The translations under genes were made by a program, and so were the position numbers. This document shows, piece after piece, positions 1 through 4,351 of a stretch of 4,363 nt of DNA (the first letter of the stretch is position 1; every line of letters starts with the position of its first letter). The stretch is from positions 1-4,363 of IMG/VR virus record IMGVR_UViG_3300029417_000050; one strand, 5' to 3'. A model generated the notes under the pieces. That model had not been told where the DNA came from. It made no database searches and saw only the letters and a list, made by a program, of their open reading frames with translations. Origin of the DNA: a virus (taxonomy: Duplodnaviria; Heunggongvirae; Uroviricota; Caudoviricetes).

Positions 1-345
1 GTACTGACCGTTTTCGTCAGTGGTGCCGATGATATTGGAAACGGTCTGCGCGAGTTTCGCTTCCTCGTCGTCGCCGGTGCCGTCTTCCACACGCACGACA
101 ACGGTGACCGGTTTTGACTGGTCGGCGATGGCCTGCAACGATGCCGCCAGCGTGCCTTTTTTACCGGCCTTTGCAATTGCGCTCTGCACATTGGTAATCA
201 GCACCGGTTTATTGAGGGGGAAGGTTTCCGCATCCGCATCGCTGGCCGTGCAGACCATGCCGACAATGGCGGTGGATACGGTGGAAATGACGCGGGTGCC
301 GTCGTTAATCTCCAGCACCTGCACGCCGTGATGATAGTCACTCAT
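1..345 (-). CDS. FI: Phage tail sheath protein, N-terminal 115 codons (P2 gpFI-like); gene continues beyond window start
   Basis: Reverse-complement of 1..345 translates without stops from ATG at 345..343: [115 protein letters not shown]. From memory this matches the N-terminus of P2-type tail sheath proteins. GGAG lies about 8 nt upstream of the ATG (355..352 on minus strand). Absent from the ORF track because no stop falls inside the window. Confidence 0.8.
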
Positions 346-404: not shown

Positions 405-998
405 CTATTTGTCCCGGTTGGCTAAGGGATGACACAATTTATTTTTTGTCACGGAGGCGGGGAATTTTTTATAGAGCGTGGACAGGCCAATATCAAAAAT
501 CAGTGCCACGCGTTGACGTGATTCCCCTGCAGCCAACAACCGCCCGGCCTGCTCCCACTCACTCGCGGTGAGTTTCGGACGTCTGCCACCAATACGACCT
601 TTAGCTCTGGCCGCTTCCAGTCCGGCGCGAGTCCGCTCGACAATGAGTTCTCGTTCCATTTCAGCCAGGGCACCCATCACATGAAAGAAAAAACGTCCCA
701 TCGGCGTGCTGGTATCAATGGCATCCGTCAGGCTGCGAAAATTAACGCCGCGTTCGCGCAGTTCCTCAACCAGAATGACCAGATGCCGCATACTACGCCC
801 CAGCCTGTCCAGCTTCCAGACCACCAGAGTGTCACCTGCTGATAATGTTCTGAGCAGTTTTTTCAGTCCCGGTCGGTCGGACTTCGTGCCGCTGATTTTA
901 TCCTCAAAAATCAGCTCACATCCTGCACACTCCAGCGCGTTACGCTGCAATTCCGTGTTCTGGTCATTTGTTGACACGCGCACATAGCCAATAAGCAT
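405..998 (-). CDS. Serine-recombinase DNA invertase (Gin/Pin/Cin/Hin family)
   Basis: Protein begins MLIGYVRVSTNDQNTELQRNAL (catalytic-serine 'VRVSTNDQ' motif of resolvase/invertase N-terminal domain), followed by GDTLVVWKLDRLGRS, MGRFFFHVMGALAEMERELIVERT and a C-terminal helix-turn-helix region (GRRPKL...ALIFDIGLSTLYKK). About 197 aa is the typical size for this family. Start is placed at ATG 998 because AGGGGG (1010..1005) sits 6 nt upstream; the ORF track's ATG at 1004 is directly adjacent to that motif. Stop TAG at 407..405. Confidence 0.93.
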   Translation of the reverse strand: MLIGYVRVSTNDQNTELQRNALECAGCELIFEDKISGTKSDRPGLKKLLRTLSAGDTLVVWKLDRLGRSMRHLVILVEELRERGVNFRSLTDAIDTSTPMGRFFFHVMGALAEMERELIVERTRAGLEAARAKGRIGGRRPKLTASEWEQAGRLLAAGESRQRVALIFDIGLSTLYKKFPASVTKNKLCHPLANRDK

Positions 999-1025
999 GA
1001 GCATCCCCCTGAATAAAAACCGGAG

Positions 1026-1400
1026 ATGATGCCAGTTGCCCGTTATCTCTGCATTTTCATAAACGTTGGTTTGGGAGAAGCGGCGAAAAGGAATGTGGGG
1101 ACTGGGGCGAATCAGATACCTGATATGTCATCATATGCATCAGGTTCAGGCTGGCGAAAAATGCCAGATGGTTCAATTGAACAGTGGGGAGGAATTCGTT
1201 TTCCTGGTGAACACGAGCCTGTATCCGCCAATGTTTCATTCCCAATTCCATTTACACAGACACCGGACATTATAATTGTGTTCGATGGTGGTTTCGGGGG
1301 CGGGAATATGTGGGGGGCGACCAACTGGAGCACTACCGGCTTCATAGCTCACTGCAATTATGGTCTTGAAGGTGGTGCGTTTTTCGCTAAGGGCTGGTAA
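1026..1400 (+). CDS. Silent alternative tail-fiber C-terminal cassette (Sv'-like); no own start, functional part begins at the crossover (about 1066/1080) and encodes 106 aa after the shared GLGE
   Basis: Frame is open from 1026 but the ATGATG at 1026 has GGAG directly abutting it with no spacer and sits in the site/invertase intergenic region. The frame passes through the crossover site encoding VGLGE in the same frame as LGLGE in the expressed fiber. Ends TAA 1398..1400, overlapping the next ATG (TAATG) of a tail-fiber assembly gene. Gly/Trp-rich C-terminus ([15 protein letters not shown]) is consistent with a fiber tip. Confidence 0.65.
1054..1079. repeat. 26-bp invertase crossover site, invertase-proximal (gix/hix/pix-like)
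   Basis: Sequence ttttcataaacg-tt-ggtttgggagaa. The right half ggtttgggagaa resembles the conserved GGTTTT-GATAA half-site of gix/hix sites as I recall them. The 15-bp ttggtttgggagaag (1066..1080) is a perfect inverted copy of 2903..2917. Lies 55 bp upstream of the invertase start, as in Mu/P1/e14. Confidence 0.72.
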
Positions 1401-1843
1401 TGATGAAATATCTGTACGTAAACAACCTGGCATATCCTTACGAACTTCAGTCTCTTTATGTTGAAAAAGGTGAATGGCCTGAAGAAAAAGGTGTTGATAT
1501 AGACGAAGTAATTTTCAGGGAATATTTCTATGATACACCACCAGAAGGAAAATACAGATGTGTCGGAGAGGATGGACTGCCTGCATGGGCAGATATTCCT
1601 CCACCAACACGTGAAGAACAAATTGCATCAGCCGAAACTAAAAAGCAGCAATTGATTAACCAGGCCAACGAATACATCAACAGTAAACAATGGCCAGGTA
1701 AAGCATCAATTGGTCGTCTGAAAGGTGAGGAACTGGCGCAATATAATTTGTGGCTGGATTATCTGGACGCACTGGAGCTGGTCGATACTTCCAGTGCACC
1801 AGATATTGAATGGCCTACTCCTCCGGCAGTTCAGGCCAGATGA
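1400..1843 (+). CDS. Tail fiber assembly protein (chaperone), cognate to the silent cassette (U'-like)
   Basis: 147 aa. C-terminus LWLDYLDALELVDTSSAPDIEWPTPP matches the conserved Tfa C-terminal motif, compare AVLDYIDAVTATDTSTAPDVIWPELP in the convergent gene. Start ATG overlaps the upstream stop (TAATG). Antisense to the late structural operon in this orientation. Confidence 0.85.
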   Translation: MMKYLYVNNLAYPYELQSLYVEKGEWPEEKGVDIDEVIFREYFYDTPPEGKYRCVGEDGLPAWADIPPPTREEQIASAETKKQQLINQANEYINSKQWPGKASIGRLKGEELAQYNLWLDYLDALELVDTSSAPDIEWPTPPAVQAR

Positions 1844-2417
1844 CATCCGGCGCGGTGCTGGTATCTGTTGCCGTCACCGCGTCAATGTAATCCAGCACGG
1901 CGTTAAGTCGGGTTGTTTCTGCCTGCGTCAACTTCCGTCCGGCCTGTAATTTCAGCTGAATCAGACTAATGGAAGCCATTGCTGCATTAATCAGTGACTG
2001 GCGCTGTGCTTCTGCCGCGTCTAGTGCGGCGCTATGCTGTGCCTCGGTATCCGTCACCCATTTCTCACCATCCCATTTATCGTATGGCGTTAATGGGGCG
2101 ATAGTGGTTGTATTTTCAGGGTAATCACCCGGAACTGTGATTTCTTTGGTATCTCCCGTTTCGGTACTATAGACAACTTCACCGCGATGGTCTGGCACAT
2201 ATTCCCATGAATTTAAATCTACAGAGCGACAGATTGCATAACCAGCTTTATGTGTACCTGGTGCATCCAGACAGGAACATGCCGGGATACCGACGCCGAC
2301 AGCGAGATATTCAGTTGATGTAGAAATATATTCCCGCGTTTCGCCATCATAGTTATGTACGATGATTTCCCCATCATTTAAAGCGTAACCGTCTTTTCCC
2401 AAAATAGCCTGTTCCAT
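1815..2417 (-). CDS. Tail fiber assembly protein (chaperone), cognate to the expressed fiber (Mu U / P2 G / lambda Tfa family)
   Basis: 200 aa. Conserved Tfa C-terminal motif RLNAVLDYIDAVTATDTSTAPDVIWPELPEE. ATG 2417..2415 immediately follows the fiber stop TAA 2420..2418 (TAAATG). Stop TAG 1817..1815. Confidence 0.88.
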   Translation of the reverse strand: MEQAILGKDGYALNDGEIIVHNYDGETREYISTSTEYLAVGVGIPACSCLDAPGTHKAGYAICRSVDLNSWEYVPDHRGEVVYSTETGDTKEITVPGDYPENTTTIAPLTPYDKWDGEKWVTDTEAQHSAALDAAEAQRQSLINAAMASISLIQLKLQAGRKLTQAETTRLNAVLDYIDAVTATDTSTAPDVIWPELPEE

Positions 2418-3743
2418 TTATGCAGCCCTCACAATGTAGTTAAATGCAATGTTTCGCGGGCTACCATCACCGGCGCCGGAACTGACATGATTGGTTCTAT
2501 CCATTCGTTTACTGTCATTTGTTGTTCCACTCCCATCCTTCCACGAATACAATATCCCGCCATCGCCAATGCTCAACTGCACCGCAAATACGGATGATGT
2601 ACCTAATTCACCAACATCTCTAGCCATGAGTGGGTTCCCTGTCCATCCATGCATTTCATGGTTATGTTCAAGGATAGATGCTGCCTGACTTGAAAGCAGC
2701 AGTCTCGCGGAATCAACACCTCGCCCATCATCCCACCCGCGAATAAACTCACCGCGCAAATCCGGTAATTTTAACTTTGGGTAAGCCTTTGCCAGTTTTG
2801 GGTACTCTTCGGCAGAAAAAGGTGCACCGTTGCATTTCAGCCAGCCTGTTGGTGGTGTGGCTGAAGGCCACGGAACAGGCACACCAACGGGTAACGCTGA
2901 GCCTTCTCCCAAACCAAGGTATGCGAGAAGACCGGCAACATCCTTTCCACTCAAATGAGTCAGCGTCTCATCCAGTGGCTGCTTACCTGACAGCGCATTG
3001 TTAATGGTGGTGCTGAATTTCGGGTCATTGTTAATGGCCGCGGCAATTTCTTTCAGTGTGTCCAGTGTGGCTGGCGCACCGTTAATCAGAGCGGTAATAG
3101 CGGCCTGTACAAACGCAGTGGTCGCAATCCGCGTGGTGTTATTTCCTGCGGCAGGCGTCGGCGCTTTTGGTTCTCCGGTAAATGTCGGATTATGTTTCTG
3201 TGCATACTGGGTATGAGGGTCCTGTGCGGCAATGTGTTTTCTCATCTGGTCATCCACATACAGCCTTAATTCCAGGACTTCATCATCCACGTATTTACGG
3301 GTCGCCAATACCACCGACGGGTCGATTTTCAGCGTAATAGCTTCGGTATTCGTGACAACCAGAATCATGCGGATAGTCTGGGTACGACCACTTCCTTCCT
3401 GCAACTGCGGTTTGTACGTTTCCGGGCAGTTCGCCACCGCAATGAGTACGCCTTCATCATCATAAAGCCCAATCTCACGGATCCAGAATCCGCCCTCGTT
3501 CTCAGGGATGATTTGCTCCGCAATAATCTGGCTCTGGTTGTTCGGGTCAACACTCAGAAGATTCAGCGGTGCAATGCGTTTCTGATTAATCAGTTTTGTC
3601 TGTGCCGGGTCTGGTGTCGGCAAGACACCATTCGCATCACCAACGGCCATTTGCGTCAGATTCAGCTTACTGCCGAGCATCGTCGCGTTAGCCAGGCGTG
3701 CTGCGCCCTGATTAGTCAGAATGGCGTAGTATTTCACTGTCAT
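2418..3743 (-). CDS. Phage tail fiber protein (P2 gpH-like constant N-terminus fused to the currently expressed variable C-terminus)
   Basis: 441 aa. N-terminal region (MTVKYYAILTNQGAARLA...MAVGDANGVLP...GGFWIREIGLYDDEGVLIAVAN...KPQLQEGSGRTQTIRMILVV) resembles the conserved N-terminal domain of P2 H-type fibers. C-terminal part contains WLKCNGAPFSAEEYPKLAKAY...LPDLRGEFIRGWDDGRGVD, a phage tail-collar-like motif. ATG 3743..3741 overlaps the stop of the upstream gene (ATGA). Confidence 0.92.
   Translation of the reverse strand: MTVKYYAILTNQGAARLANATMLGSKLNLTQMAVGDANGVLPTPDPAQTKLINQKRIAPLNLLSVDPNNQSQIIAEQIIPENEGGFWIREIGLYDDEGVLIAVANCPETYKPQLQEGSGRTQTIRMILVVTNTEAITLKIDPSVVLATRKYVDDEVLELRLYVDDQMRKHIAAQDPHTQYAQKHNPTFTGEPKAPTPAAGNNTTRIATTAFVQAAITALINGAPATLDTLKEIAAAINNDPKFSTTINNALSGKQPLDETLTHLSGKDVAGLLAYLGLGEGSALPVGVPVPWPSATPPTGWLKCNGAPFSAEEYPKLAKAYPKLKLPDLRGEFIRGWDDGRGVDSARLLLSSQAASILEHNHEMHGWTGNPLMARDVGELGTSSVFAVQLSIGDGGILYSWKDGSGTTNDSKRMDRTNHVSSGAGDGSPRNIAFNYIVRAA
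2904..2929. repeat. 26-bp invertase crossover site inside the tail-fiber gene (constant/variable junction, codons about 272-280)
   Basis: Plus strand ttctcccaaacc-aa-ggtatgcgagaa; its reverse complement ttctcgcatacc-tt-ggtttgggagaa shares the core tt plus the right half-site exactly with 1054..1079, and 7 of 12 positions in the other half. Encodes LLAYLGLGE in the fiber. Confidence 0.72.
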
Positions 3744-4351
3744 GCGTTTACTCTCAGGTTATCAATTAAATGAATGGCCGAGGCCGGGAAATAATCCCCT
3801 CCGACAATAATGGCCTCCGGGGTGTAGGGATAAACCGTCAGGGCGTCACCGTGATAGCATCCCGCACCGGCAAAAATGTTGCCGGTTGTACTTAAGCTGA
3901 TAGCCAGTCCCGTCAGATGGCGGCTTGCCGGTTTTGCATCAGCAACGAGGCGCTCCAGCTCCTGATACATTTCCTCGGTAATACCCTGCTCAAGCACACC
4001 AACAACGATGCGGAACGTCCCCGGCTCCTCGTTGAGTTGCCACCACTCCCTCACCTCAATCAGATAGCCGAGCGGCTCCACCACACGCCGGATTGCGCCT
4101 ATAGTGCCCTTATGGCAGTGAATGAAATACGCATCGCGGATAACAGCGCGTTTTGTCGCTTCCGGCCACTTATCATCCCAGCGGTCAACCGAAAATGACC
4201 ACGCCAGCCACGGCAGCAGATTTGCCGGACAGGTATCCGGGTTCCACAGTTCACGAATCCTGACCGGCGTTTTTTCAATTTCCGCACAGGCTTTTGCGGC
4301 GGCAACTTCAAGCGGTGATGAGCCGGTCGGCAGCAGTCGCGAATCACTCAT
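3740..4351 (-). CDS. Phage baseplate/tail protein (P2 gpI-like)
   Basis: 203-aa ORF directly upstream of, and translationally coupled to, the H-like fiber gene (ATGA overlap at 3743..3740), which is the position gpI holds in P2-like tail clusters. GGAGG (4360..4356 on minus strand) lies 4 nt upstream of ATG 4351..4349. Family assignment is from context and recalled similarity, not a search. Confidence 0.78.
   Translation of the reverse strand: MSDSRLLPTGSSPLEVAAAKACAEIEKTPVRIRELWNPDTCPANLLPWLAWSFSVDRWDDKWPEATKRAVIRDAYFIHCHKGTIGAIRRVVEPLGYLIEVREWWQLNEEPGTFRIVVGVLEQGITEEMYQELERLVADAKPASRHLTGLAISLSTTGNIFAGAGCYHGDALTVYPYTPEAIIVGGDYFPASAIHLIDNLRVNA

What the first reader, a model, noticed from the sequence alone, without database searches (positions are those of the whole stretch)
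1054..2929. Crossover sites are frame-matched so inversion makes an in-frame fiber fusion
Both sites encode G-L-G-E in the same codon phase relative to the 26-bp site (ggt ttg gga gaa occupies site positions 15-26 in both). Recombination at the central tt would join fiber codons 1-280 to a different 106-aa C-terminus ([12 protein letters not shown]...FFAKGW) in place of the present 161-aa one (GSALPVG...IVRAA). The predicted alternative fiber is 386 aa. The perfect inverted identity is 15 bp (1066..1080 versus 2903..2917); the outer half-sites diverge.
Basis: seen in the sequence. Interest (0 to 1): 0.7.

Follow-up and report, generated by a model that had tools for sequence, protein, structure and literature searches.

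The report
Pin-type invertible phage tail-fibre switch
This is an ordinary, long-known phage DNA-inversion switch: a Pin-family invertase flips an 1.85-kb segment of a P2-like prophage, so that the tail-fibre gene gets one of two alternative receptor-binding ends, each with its own assembly chaperone.

Summary
Two 26-bp sites in inverted orientation (1054-1079 and 2904-2929) share the inner half-site plus core, TTCTCCCAAACC-AA, and a 15-bp perfect inverted repeat. Both encode G-L-G-E in the same codon phase. Inverting the segment in silico gives one uninterrupted 386-aa fibre ORF that ends at TAA 1398-1400. That predicted state exists in nature. The inverted window aligns end to end (96.9%) with a prophage of E. 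coli EA2, whose annotated fibre is 386 aa and 97% identical. E. coli NCTC9040 carries the segment at 99.2% identity in the opposite orientation.

The site next to the invertase is identical (26/26) to the published pixR of the E. coli e14 element. The fibre-side site matches pixL at 23/26. The invertase is 88% identical to e14 PinE, 79% to P1 Cin and 77% to Mu Gin. It retains the stretch that P1 annotates as the inversion enhancer, with two Fis-like motifs 48 bp apart.

The setting is a P2-like tail module (gpI, fibre H, chaperone, sheath FI). This is the classic Gin/Cin/Pin host-range switch, already shown to invert in P2-like prophages of E. coli. It is real and well formed, but not novel.

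The parts
405..998 (-). Pin-type serine DNA invertase, 197 aa. An alternative ATG at 1004 would add 2 aa.
   Evidence: Pfam Resolvase (E = 2.9e-52) plus HTH_7 (E = 5.5e-13). It is 88% identical to e14 PinE, 79% to P1 Cin and 77% to Mu Gin. Ser9, Arg7, Asp64, Arg65 and Arg68 are invariant in that alignment. RefSeq relatives are annotated at the same 594-bp length.
909..980 (-). Inferred recombinational (Fis) enhancer inside the 5' end of the invertase gene. Fis-like 15-mers lie at 962-976 and 914-928, centres 48 bp apart.
   Evidence: This stretch is colinear with the annotated 'enhancer of Cin-mediated C-segment inversion' (cin nt 19-90) in the phage P1 record. It shares 57 of 72 identical bases with P1, 55 with Mu gin and 62 with e14 pinE. 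The two matches to GNNYRNNWNNYRNNC (centres nt 30 and nt 78) are conserved in all four genes. Fis binding itself was not tested.
1054..1079 (-). Crossover site next to the invertase, of pixR type: TTCTCCCAAACC AA CGTTTATGAAAA. The core dinucleotide is at 1066-1067.
   Evidence: It is 26/26 identical to the published pixR (PMC3241671 Table 3) and to the site beside pinE in E. coli K-12 e14 (L006 4606-4631).
1068..1400 (+). Silent variable fibre cassette: G-L-G-E, then a 106-aa C-terminus (AAKRNVGTG...FFAKGW), then TAA.
   Evidence: Pfam Gp53-like_C, E = 4.9e-07. After in-silico inversion it becomes the C-terminus of a 386-aa fibre. It is found fused to the fibre in E. coli EA2 and HKUOPY1.
1400..1843 (+). 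Tail-fibre assembly chaperone of the silent cassette, 147 aa. Its ATG overlaps the cassette's TAA (TAATG).
   Evidence: Pfam Caudo_TAP, E = 9.6e-34. The junction sequence is shown.
1815..2417 (-). Tail-fibre assembly chaperone of the expressed cassette, 200 aa, TfaE-like. It starts directly after the fibre stop codon.
   Evidence: Pfam Caudo_TAP, E = 1.3e-31. The DNA is 85% identical to e14 tfaE.
2418..2915 (-). Currently expressed variable C-terminus of the fibre: G-L-G-E plus 161 aa (GSALPVG...IVRAA), StfE-like.
   Evidence: Pfam Collar domain at residues 287-334. It is homologous to the e14 stfE cassette, which has the same GSALPVGVPVPWPSATPPTGWLKCNGA start and NIAFNYIVRAA end.
2904..2929 (+). 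Crossover site inside the fibre gene, of pixL type: TTCTCCCAAACC AA GGTATGCGAGAA. The core dinucleotide is at 2916-2917.
   Evidence: It matches the published pixL at 23 of 26 positions. The identical 26-mer sits at the same place in all five related prophages and phages examined (L001-L005) and in L009.
2918..3743 (-). Constant N-terminal part of the tail fibre (P2 gpH-like), outside the invertible segment.
   Evidence: Pfam Phage_tail_fib N-terminal domain, residues 1-150, E = 2.6e-62. It keeps the same orientation relative to gpI in both natural orientations of the segment.
3740..4351 (-). P2 gpI-like baseplate/tail protein. This is context and shows the late tail operon reads into the fibre.
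   Evidence: Pfam Tail_P2_I, E = 4e-56.
1..345 (-). N-terminal part of the tail sheath protein (P2 FI-like), cut by the window edge. This is context.
   Evidence: Pfam Gp18_domIII_N. It is annotated as tail sheath protein in relatives.

Best explanation
Positions 1067-2916 form the invertible segment of a Pin-type (Hin/Gin/Cin/Pin, 'Din' family) DNA-inversion switch, inserted between the tail-fibre gene and the sheath gene of a P2-like prophage.

Inferred mechanism, by family:
- The serine invertase (405-998, - strand) binds as dimers to the two inverted 26-bp pix sites.
- The sites are synapsed on a Fis-bound enhancer that lies in the 5' end of the invertase's own gene.
- The invertase makes 2-bp staggered cuts at the identical AA/TT cores (1066-1067 and 2916-2917), rotates the half-sites, and religates.

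Shown from the sequence:
- The fibre promoter, start codon and first ~276 codons lie outside the segment.
- Both sites encode G-L-G-E in the same phase.
- Either orientation therefore yields a complete fibre. The present one is a 441-aa fibre with a Collar/StfE-type tip, followed by a 200-aa TfaE-like chaperone. The flipped one is a 386-aa fibre with a gp53-like tip, followed by a 147-aa chaperone.

Inferred consequence, by analogy with Mu and P1: a lysogen population produces phage with two receptor specificities.
For: - Sites and frame.
- In-silico inversion gives one 386-aa ORF.
- Site 1 equals the published pixR at 26/26; site 2 matches pixL at 23/26; the cores are identical AA.
- Invertase: Resolvase + HTH_7 domains, 88% identical to PinE, catalytic residues invariant.
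- Enhancer-equivalent region: two Fis-consensus matches 48 bp apart, colinear with P1's annotated enhancer.
- Both orientations occur in nature. The window order matches E. coli 2017.02.04CC (L001).
- The inverted order matches E. coli EA2 end to end, 4364 aligned bp at 96.9%, with a 386-aa fibre 97% identical to the prediction.
- NCTC9040 carries window segment 1063-2920 at 99.2% identity, flipped relative to flanks that are 97% identical.
- All four junction types are found among complete E. coli genomes. At 80% query coverage or more, the counts are 308, 10, 53 and 717 genomes.
- Each cassette carries its own Caudo_TAP chaperone.
- Literature: e14 P-segment inversion fuses ORFs, and P2-like prophage tail-fibre loci invert within clonal E. 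coli cultures (PMC4272514).
Against: - Nothing here shows switching in the particular genome the window comes from. Only one orientation is in hand.
- The fibre-side site differs from e14 pixL at three outer-half positions.
- The Fis motif is degenerate, so the enhancer assignment rests on homology and spacing, not on binding.
- No convincing sigma-70 promoter for the invertase was found between 998 and 1066. The only promoter-like hit, 1157-1130, lies inside the segment and is at chance level.
- A change of host range was not tested.
Confidence: 0.93

Rival explanations
1. Frozen relic. The architecture is that of a Pin switch, but in this genome it no longer flips, because the invertase is poorly expressed or inactive or the prophage is defective. 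Only the present 441-aa fibre would then ever be made.
For: Only one orientation is seen in the window. No clear invertase promoter was found. The invertase has a 13-aa longer, unrelated C-terminal tail compared with PinE. Among genomes, the gp53-like cassette lies in the silent position (53 genomes) more often than fused to the fibre (10 genomes).
Against: The invertase ORF is intact, with every catalytic and family-invariant residue present. Both sites are intact with identical cores. Both cassettes and both chaperones are uninterrupted ORFs. Near-identical segments occur in both orientations in other strains. RefSeq relatives have the same 197-aa invertase.
Confidence: 0.06
2. The orientation polymorphism among strains arises from RecA-dependent homologous recombination between the inverted repeats, not from site-specific recombination.
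For: Some relatives (L002, L004) carry much longer inverted duplications of the constant fibre region, which could support homologous exchange.
Against: In this window the perfect identity is only 15 bp, far too short for efficient RecA recombination (established knowledge). The break in colinearity between window-orientation and inverted-orientation relatives falls within the 26-bp sites. A cognate invertase sits next to the segment.
Confidence: 0.01
3. A chance inverted repeat with no recombination function.
For: None beyond the shortness of the perfect repeat (15 bp).
Against: Site 1 is 26/26 identical to the published pixR. The repeat is positioned exactly at a frame-matched fibre junction. 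It is conserved in all relatives. Both orientations occur in nature.
Confidence: 0

Closest known systems
Pin / P segment of the e14 element of E. coli K-12 (pinE, stfP/ycfK-tfaP, stfE-tfaE, pixL/pixR)
   Same: - The invertase is 88% identical.
- The invertase-proximal site is 26/26 identical; the fibre-side site matches at 23/26.
- G-L-G-E is encoded in the same phase at both sites.
- The expressed cassette is StfE/TfaE-like.
- The two chaperone genes converge and overlap by 29 bp in both.
- The invertase reads away from the segment, about 55-70 bp from the site.
   Different: - The host element is a P2-like myovirus tail module (gpI, gpH-like N-terminus, FI sheath), not the defective lambdoid e14.
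- The second cassette is a gp53-like tip rather than the e14 StfP tip.
- The constant part of the fibre is 276 codons of a P2 H-type protein.
- The invertase has a longer C-terminal tail.
Gin / G segment of phage Mu and Cin / C segment of phage P1 (S/S' fibre, U/U' chaperones)
   Same: - The logic is the same: a constant fibre N-terminus outside the segment and two alternative C-termini, each with its chaperone, inside it.
- 26-bp sites with a 2-bp core.
- An enhancer inside the invertase gene's 5' end.
- The invertases are 77-79% identical.
   Different: - The site sequences differ (gix core GA; cix outer halves differ).
- Those segments are longer (3-4.2 kb).
- The cassettes are unrelated.
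- In P1, cin is oriented with its 3' end toward cixL.
Invertible tail-fibre loci of P2-like prophages in E. coli (for example EPEC E2348/69, Goldberg et al. 2014, PMC4272514); Peduovirus records with a DNA invertase between the chaperone and sheath genes
   Same: - Same genomic position and gene order.
- Inversion was shown experimentally in clonal cultures, with alternative fibre C-termini.
- Invertases in this P2 hotspot, with inversion of adjacent genes, were also noted in bioRxiv 10.1101/2024.10.15.618418.
   Different: - One EPEC locus has three sites (a four-variant shufflon). This window has exactly two.
- I did not align the EPEC loci to the window.
Hin / H segment of Salmonella
   Same: Same invertase subclass: two 26-bp sites and a Fis-bound enhancer with two sites inside the invertase gene (PMC3798978).
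   Different: Hin flips a promoter to switch flagellins. Here a coding-sequence fusion is switched.

Membership tests
Enhancer-dependent serine DNA invertases (Hin/Gin/Cin/Pin, 'Din' family) | Small (~190 aa) serine recombinase: an N-terminal resolvase catalytic domain plus a C-terminal HTH | tested here: met
   Pfam Resolvase (residues 3-135) and HTH_7 (residues 138-181), 197 aa.
Enhancer-dependent serine DNA invertases (Hin/Gin/Cin/Pin, 'Din' family) | Catalytic serine near the N-terminus and the conserved Arg/Asp active-site residues | tested here: met
   Ser9, Arg7, Asp64, Arg65 and Arg68 are invariant with PinE, Cin and Gin. Identity is 77-88%.
Enhancer-dependent serine DNA invertases (Hin/Gin/Cin/Pin, 'Din' family) | Two 26-bp recombination sites in inverted orientation (12-bp half-sites around a 2-bp core) that match published family sites | tested here: met
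   Site 1 matches pixR at 26/26 and site 2 matches pixL at 23/26 (PMC3241671 Table 3). The sites are inverted relative to each other.
Enhancer-dependent serine DNA invertases (Hin/Gin/Cin/Pin, 'Din' family) | Identical core dinucleotides in the two sites, so that the staggered ends can religate after rotation | tested here: met
   Both cores are AA (TT on the other strand), at 1066-1067 and 2916-2917.
Enhancer-dependent serine DNA invertases (Hin/Gin/Cin/Pin, 'Din' family) | Cis-acting recombinational enhancer with two Fis sites, within the 5' part of the invertase gene | tested here: inconclusive
   Window 909-980 is colinear with P1's annotated enhancer (57/72 identical). Two Fis-consensus matches 48 bp apart are conserved in pin, cin and gin. 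The motif is degenerate and the region is also coding sequence, so conservation alone is not proof. Fis binding cannot be tested here.
Enhancer-dependent serine DNA invertases (Hin/Gin/Cin/Pin, 'Din' family) | The segment actually inverts | tested here: met
   This was met for close relatives, not for the source strain itself. The inverted window is colinear with E. coli EA2 over 4364 aligned bp. NCTC9040 carries the segment at 99.2% identity, flipped. Switching within a single culture cannot be tested with these tools.
Phage tail-fibre C-terminus switching cassettes (Mu S/S'-U/U', P1, e14 type) | The crossover lies inside the fibre ORF; the constant N-terminus and start codon lie outside the segment; both fusions are in frame | tested here: met
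   The ORFs are 441 aa (present) and 386 aa (inverted). The natural 386-aa counterpart is 97% identical.
Phage tail-fibre C-terminus switching cassettes (Mu S/S'-U/U', P1, e14 type) | Each alternative C-terminus is followed by its own tail-fibre assembly chaperone | tested here: met
   There are two Caudo_TAP genes, 1400-1843 (+) and 1815-2417 (-). Each is directly coupled to its cassette.
Phage tail-fibre C-terminus switching cassettes (Mu S/S'-U/U', P1, e14 type) | The two orientations give different host range | not testable with these tools
   The two tips belong to unrelated Pfam families, Collar and Gp53-like_C. This fits different receptors but was not tested.
P2-like (Peduovirus) tail module | Gene order gpI - fibre H - chaperone G - sheath FI, with matching domains | tested here: met
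   Tail_P2_I, Phage_tail_fib, Caudo_TAP and the sheath domain were found. The best phage hits are Peduovirus records with the same order.

The most novel reading that the evidence does not exclude
The most novel reading not excluded concerns the 'silent' cassette ORF 1026-1400. It has its own ATG upstream of the pix site, and RefSeq annotates it as a free-standing gp53-like protein. It might be expressed on its own from the invertase side. Alternatively, this prophage's Pin might act in trans on other invertible loci of the host, as Fels-2 Fin does on the Salmonella H segment. Either would give the switch a role beyond phage host range.
Probability: 0.05. Interest if true: 0.35.

Novelty: already known. 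Interest (0 to 1): 0.1.

Why it matters
The finding matters little beyond correct annotation. It shows that the ORFs next to the invertase are the silent half of a switchable fibre gene, not an independent gene or a pseudogene. RefSeq relatives call the equivalent ORF a 'gp53-like domain-containing protein', and e14's stfE is flagged as a pseudogene. It also shows that this prophage can probably produce virions with two receptor specificities. That is useful for predicting host range or engineering P2-like phages and tailocins. The principle has been established since the 1980s.

Tried and rejected
- Third site (shufflon): I searched for a third crossover site using the 14-nt half-site plus core at up to 3 mismatches. 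Only the two known copies were found, so this is a simple two-state switch.
- Invertase promoter: I scanned 300-1200 for a promoter. The single weak hit lies inside the segment and is at chance level, so the promoter remains unassigned.
- Papers not held: the e14 analysis (PMC331406) and Johnson's review (PMC4384473) could not be read. Statements about the minimal enhancer distance and about Fin cross-talk therefore rest on my own knowledge.
- Paper search: a search combining Fis, enhancer, Pin and tail fiber returned nothing.
- Protein database and structure searches: I did not use them. Annotated DNA relatives at 95-99% identity already answered the question.
- Source organism: not determined. 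The best complete E. coli genome match is 95.6% identical over 91% of the window.
Full report
**Observation**

The window carries two 26-bp sequences in inverted orientation. One is at 1054-1079: TTTTCATAAACG TT GGTTTGGGAGAA on the + strand. The other is at 2929-2904 on the - strand: TTCTCGCATACC TT GGTTTGGGAGAA. They agree at 21 of 26 positions. The perfect inverted identity is exactly 15 bp, 1066-1080 against 2903-2917. The pair is the top-ranked inverted repeat in the window (I1).

In both sites the codons ggt ttg gga gaa (G-L-G-E) occupy site positions 15-26 in the reading frame of the flanking ORF. For the 441-aa ORF 2418-3743 (- strand) these are residues 277-280. For ORF 1026-1400 (+ strand) they are residues 15-18.

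I inverted the segment in silico at three equivalent boundaries: 1066-2917, 1067-2916 and 1068-2915. All three give the same uninterrupted 386-aa ORF, read from 3743 downward and ending at the TAA now at 1398-1400. It consists of 280 constant residues plus the 106-aa tail [12 protein letters not shown]...FFAKGW. One refinement: the core TT forms bases 2-3 of codon 276, so the physical junction is at codon 276 and the proteins first differ at residue 281.

**Gene content**

Pfam assigns the ORFs as follows:

| Coordinates (strand) | Length | Pfam assignment | Role |
|---|---|---|---|
| 3740-4351 (-) | 203 aa | Tail_P2_I | P2 gpI-like tail protein |
| 2418-3743 (-) | 441 aa | Phage_tail_fib (N-terminus), Collar (residues 287-334) | Tail fibre; the Collar domain lies beyond the crossover |
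| 1815-2417 (-) | 200 aa | Caudo_TAP | Tail-fibre assembly chaperone |
| 1400-1843 (+) | 147 aa | Caudo_TAP | Second chaperone |
| 1080-1400 (+) | 106 aa | Gp53-like_C | Tip of the silent cassette |
| 405-998 (-) | 197 aa | Resolvase + HTH_7 | Serine recombinase |
| 1-345 (-) | 115 aa (cut) | Gp18_domIII_N | Start of a tail sheath protein |

This is the P2 order I-H-G-FI, with an invertase and a second, oppositely oriented tip-plus-chaperone cassette inserted between the chaperone and sheath genes. The best phage matches are Peduovirus records with this same order and an annotated 'DNA invertase' or 'hin'.

Each tip is tightly coupled to its chaperone. The arrangement is TAATG at 1398-1402, and TAA followed directly by ATG at 2420-2415 on the - strand.

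**Identity of the sites and the enzyme**

Table 3 of PMC3241671 lists the published sites of the family. The invertase-proximal site, read on the - strand, is TTCTCCCAAACC AA CGTTTATGAAAA. That is pixR at 26 of 26 positions. The fibre-side site, TTCTCCCAAACC AA GGTATGCGAGAA, matches pixL at 23 of 26. Both cores are AA.

I fetched the e14 element of E. coli K-12 and found the two published pix sites at the expected places. The window's invertase is 88% identical to e14 PinE, 79% to P1 Cin and 77% to Mu Gin. The catalytic Ser9 and the Arg/Asp residues are invariant.

In e14, both pix sites also encode G-L-G-E in the same phase. The e14 stfE cassette begins GSALPVGVPVPWPSATPPTGWLKCNGA and ends NIAFNYIVRAA, like the tip currently expressed in the window. 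The adjoining chaperone DNA is 85% identical to tfaE. Frame-matching is therefore an inherited property of pix-type switches, not a peculiarity of this locus.

No third site is present at up to 3 mismatches. This is a two-state switch, not a shufflon.

**Enhancer**

The phage P1 record annotates the 'enhancer of Cin-mediated C-segment inversion' at cin nucleotides 19-90. The colinear stretch of the window's invertase gene is 909-980. It shares 57 of 72 bases with P1, 55 with Mu gin and 62 with e14 pinE.

Two matches to the degenerate Fis consensus GNNYRNNWNNYRNNC are conserved in all four genes. The consensus is from my own knowledge of Hübner and Arber 1989 and Finkel and Johnson 1992. The matches are centred at gene nucleotides 30 and 78, which correspond to window 962-976 and 914-928, and are 48 bp apart. 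A two-Fis-site enhancer is a defining feature of this invertase subclass (PMC3798978). The 48-bp spacing as the canonical value is my own knowledge.

I rate this feature as consistent but not proven. The motif is weak, and the region is also under protein-coding constraint.

**Does it flip in nature?**

Yes, in close relatives.
- **Same orientation.** E. coli 2017.02.04CC has the window's orientation.
- **Inverted orientation.** The in-silico inverted window aligns as a single 4364-bp HSP at 96.9% with a prophage of E. coli EA2. The uninverted window breaks into three pieces at the sites. EA2's annotated fibre is 386 aa and 97% identical, without gaps, to the predicted fusion.
- **Closest segment, flipped.** E. 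coli NCTC9040 holds window 1063-2920 at 99.2% identity, in the opposite orientation relative to flanks that are 97% identical.

All four junction types occur among complete E. coli genomes, counted as genomes with at least 80% coverage of a 500-bp junction probe:

| Junction | Genomes |
|---|---|
| Fibre + Collar tip | 308 |
| Fibre + gp53-like tip | 10 |
| Invertase next to gp53-like tip | 53 |
| Invertase next to Collar tip | 717 |

These counts mix different prophages, including e14, and are not an orientation ratio.

Goldberg et al. 2014 showed by sequencing and PCR that the e14 P segment and tail-fibre loci of P2-like prophages invert within clonal E. coli cultures. They also showed that inversion gives alternative fibre C-termini (PMC4272514).

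**Mechanism**

Shown here:
- the site sequences and their identical cores;
- the frame match at both sites;
- two complete alternative fibre ORFs, each with a cognate chaperone;
- an intact invertase of the Pin lineage;
- natural occurrence of both orientations.

Inferred from the family:
- dimers on each pix site synapse on a Fis-bound enhancer in a supercoiled loop;
- the invertase makes 2-bp staggered double-strand cuts at the cores through Ser9;
- a 180° subunit rotation and religation follow.

Inferred by analogy with Mu and P1:
- the two tips recognise different receptors, so a lysogen population hedges its host range.

Not established:
- activity in the source strain;
- the invertase promoter. 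The scan gave only one chance-level hit, which lies inside the segment.

**Comparison and novelty**

This locus works like the Pin/P segment of e14 and passes the membership tests of that family. It sits in a P2-like prophage, carries one StfE/TfaE-type cassette, and carries a gp53-like cassette in place of e14's StfP tip. Sequences 95-99% identical are already in RefSeq and GenBank with the invertase annotated. The site sequences were published in 1985. Inversion in P2-like prophages has been demonstrated experimentally.

The finding is correct and cleanly verified, but it is already-known biology. Interest is low.

**Rivals**

- **Frozen relic (about 6%).** The switch may no longer flip in this host. 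I cannot exclude this without reads or PCR from the source strain. The intact ORFs and sites argue against it.
- **RecA-mediated inversion (about 1%).** This is implausible with only 15 bp of identity.
- **Chance repeat.** This is refuted by the 26/26 match to pixR and by the natural inverted relatives.

Noticed in passing
window 1815-1843: The two convergent tail-fibre chaperone genes overlap by 29 bp at their 3' ends, on opposite strands. Both encode a similar C-terminal motif (…TSSAPDIEWPTPP… and …TSTAPDVIWPELP…). The same 29-bp overlap occurs between tfaP and tfaE in e14 (L006 3518-3546).
   Followed up: partly
window 1026-1400; L001 2526-2924; L006 4120-4656: The silent cassette has an in-frame ATG upstream of the pix site ([18 protein letters not shown]...). 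RefSeq annotates the equivalent ORF in relatives as a free-standing 'gp53-like domain-containing protein', and e14's stfE is flagged as a pseudogene. These are most likely annotation artefacts of a switchable gene half.
   Followed up: partly
L004 1-239 and 212-237; L002 2566-2591: In E. coli HKUOPY1 and in 'Escherichia phage P2' from O157:H43 T22, both sites have the fibre-type outer half-site GGTATGCGAGAA. HKUOPY1 also has at least 238 bp of the constant fibre region duplicated in inverted orientation beside the second cassette. The inverted repeats there are therefore much longer than 26 bp. In the T22 phage the invertase is annotated as only 495 bp.
   Followed up: no
L009 3454-3744 versus window 2920-2988: The NCTC9040 fibre (1383 bp, 460 aa) has about 220 extra or divergent bases in the constant part, just upstream of the crossover site. 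The invertible segment itself is 99.2% identical. This suggests mosaic exchange at the end of the constant region.
   Followed up: no
window 1018-1037 (- strand): A terminator-like hairpin followed by a T-run lies between the pix site and the invertase start codon, on the strand of the late fibre operon and the invertase. It could insulate the invertase from read-through out of the fibre operon. This is a pattern match only.
   Followed up: no
window 405-455 (- strand): The invertase has a C-terminal tail (…SVTKNKLCHPLANRDK) that is 13 aa longer than in e14 PinE and unrelated to the tails of Cin and Gin. Relatives in RefSeq share the 197-aa length.
   Followed up: partly
(E. coli complete genomes): The junction counts are skewed. 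The gp53-like tip is found in the silent position more often (53 genomes) than fused to the fibre (10). The Collar/StfE-type tip is very common next to an invertase (717 genomes), probably because e14-like elements are included in that count.
   Followed up: partly
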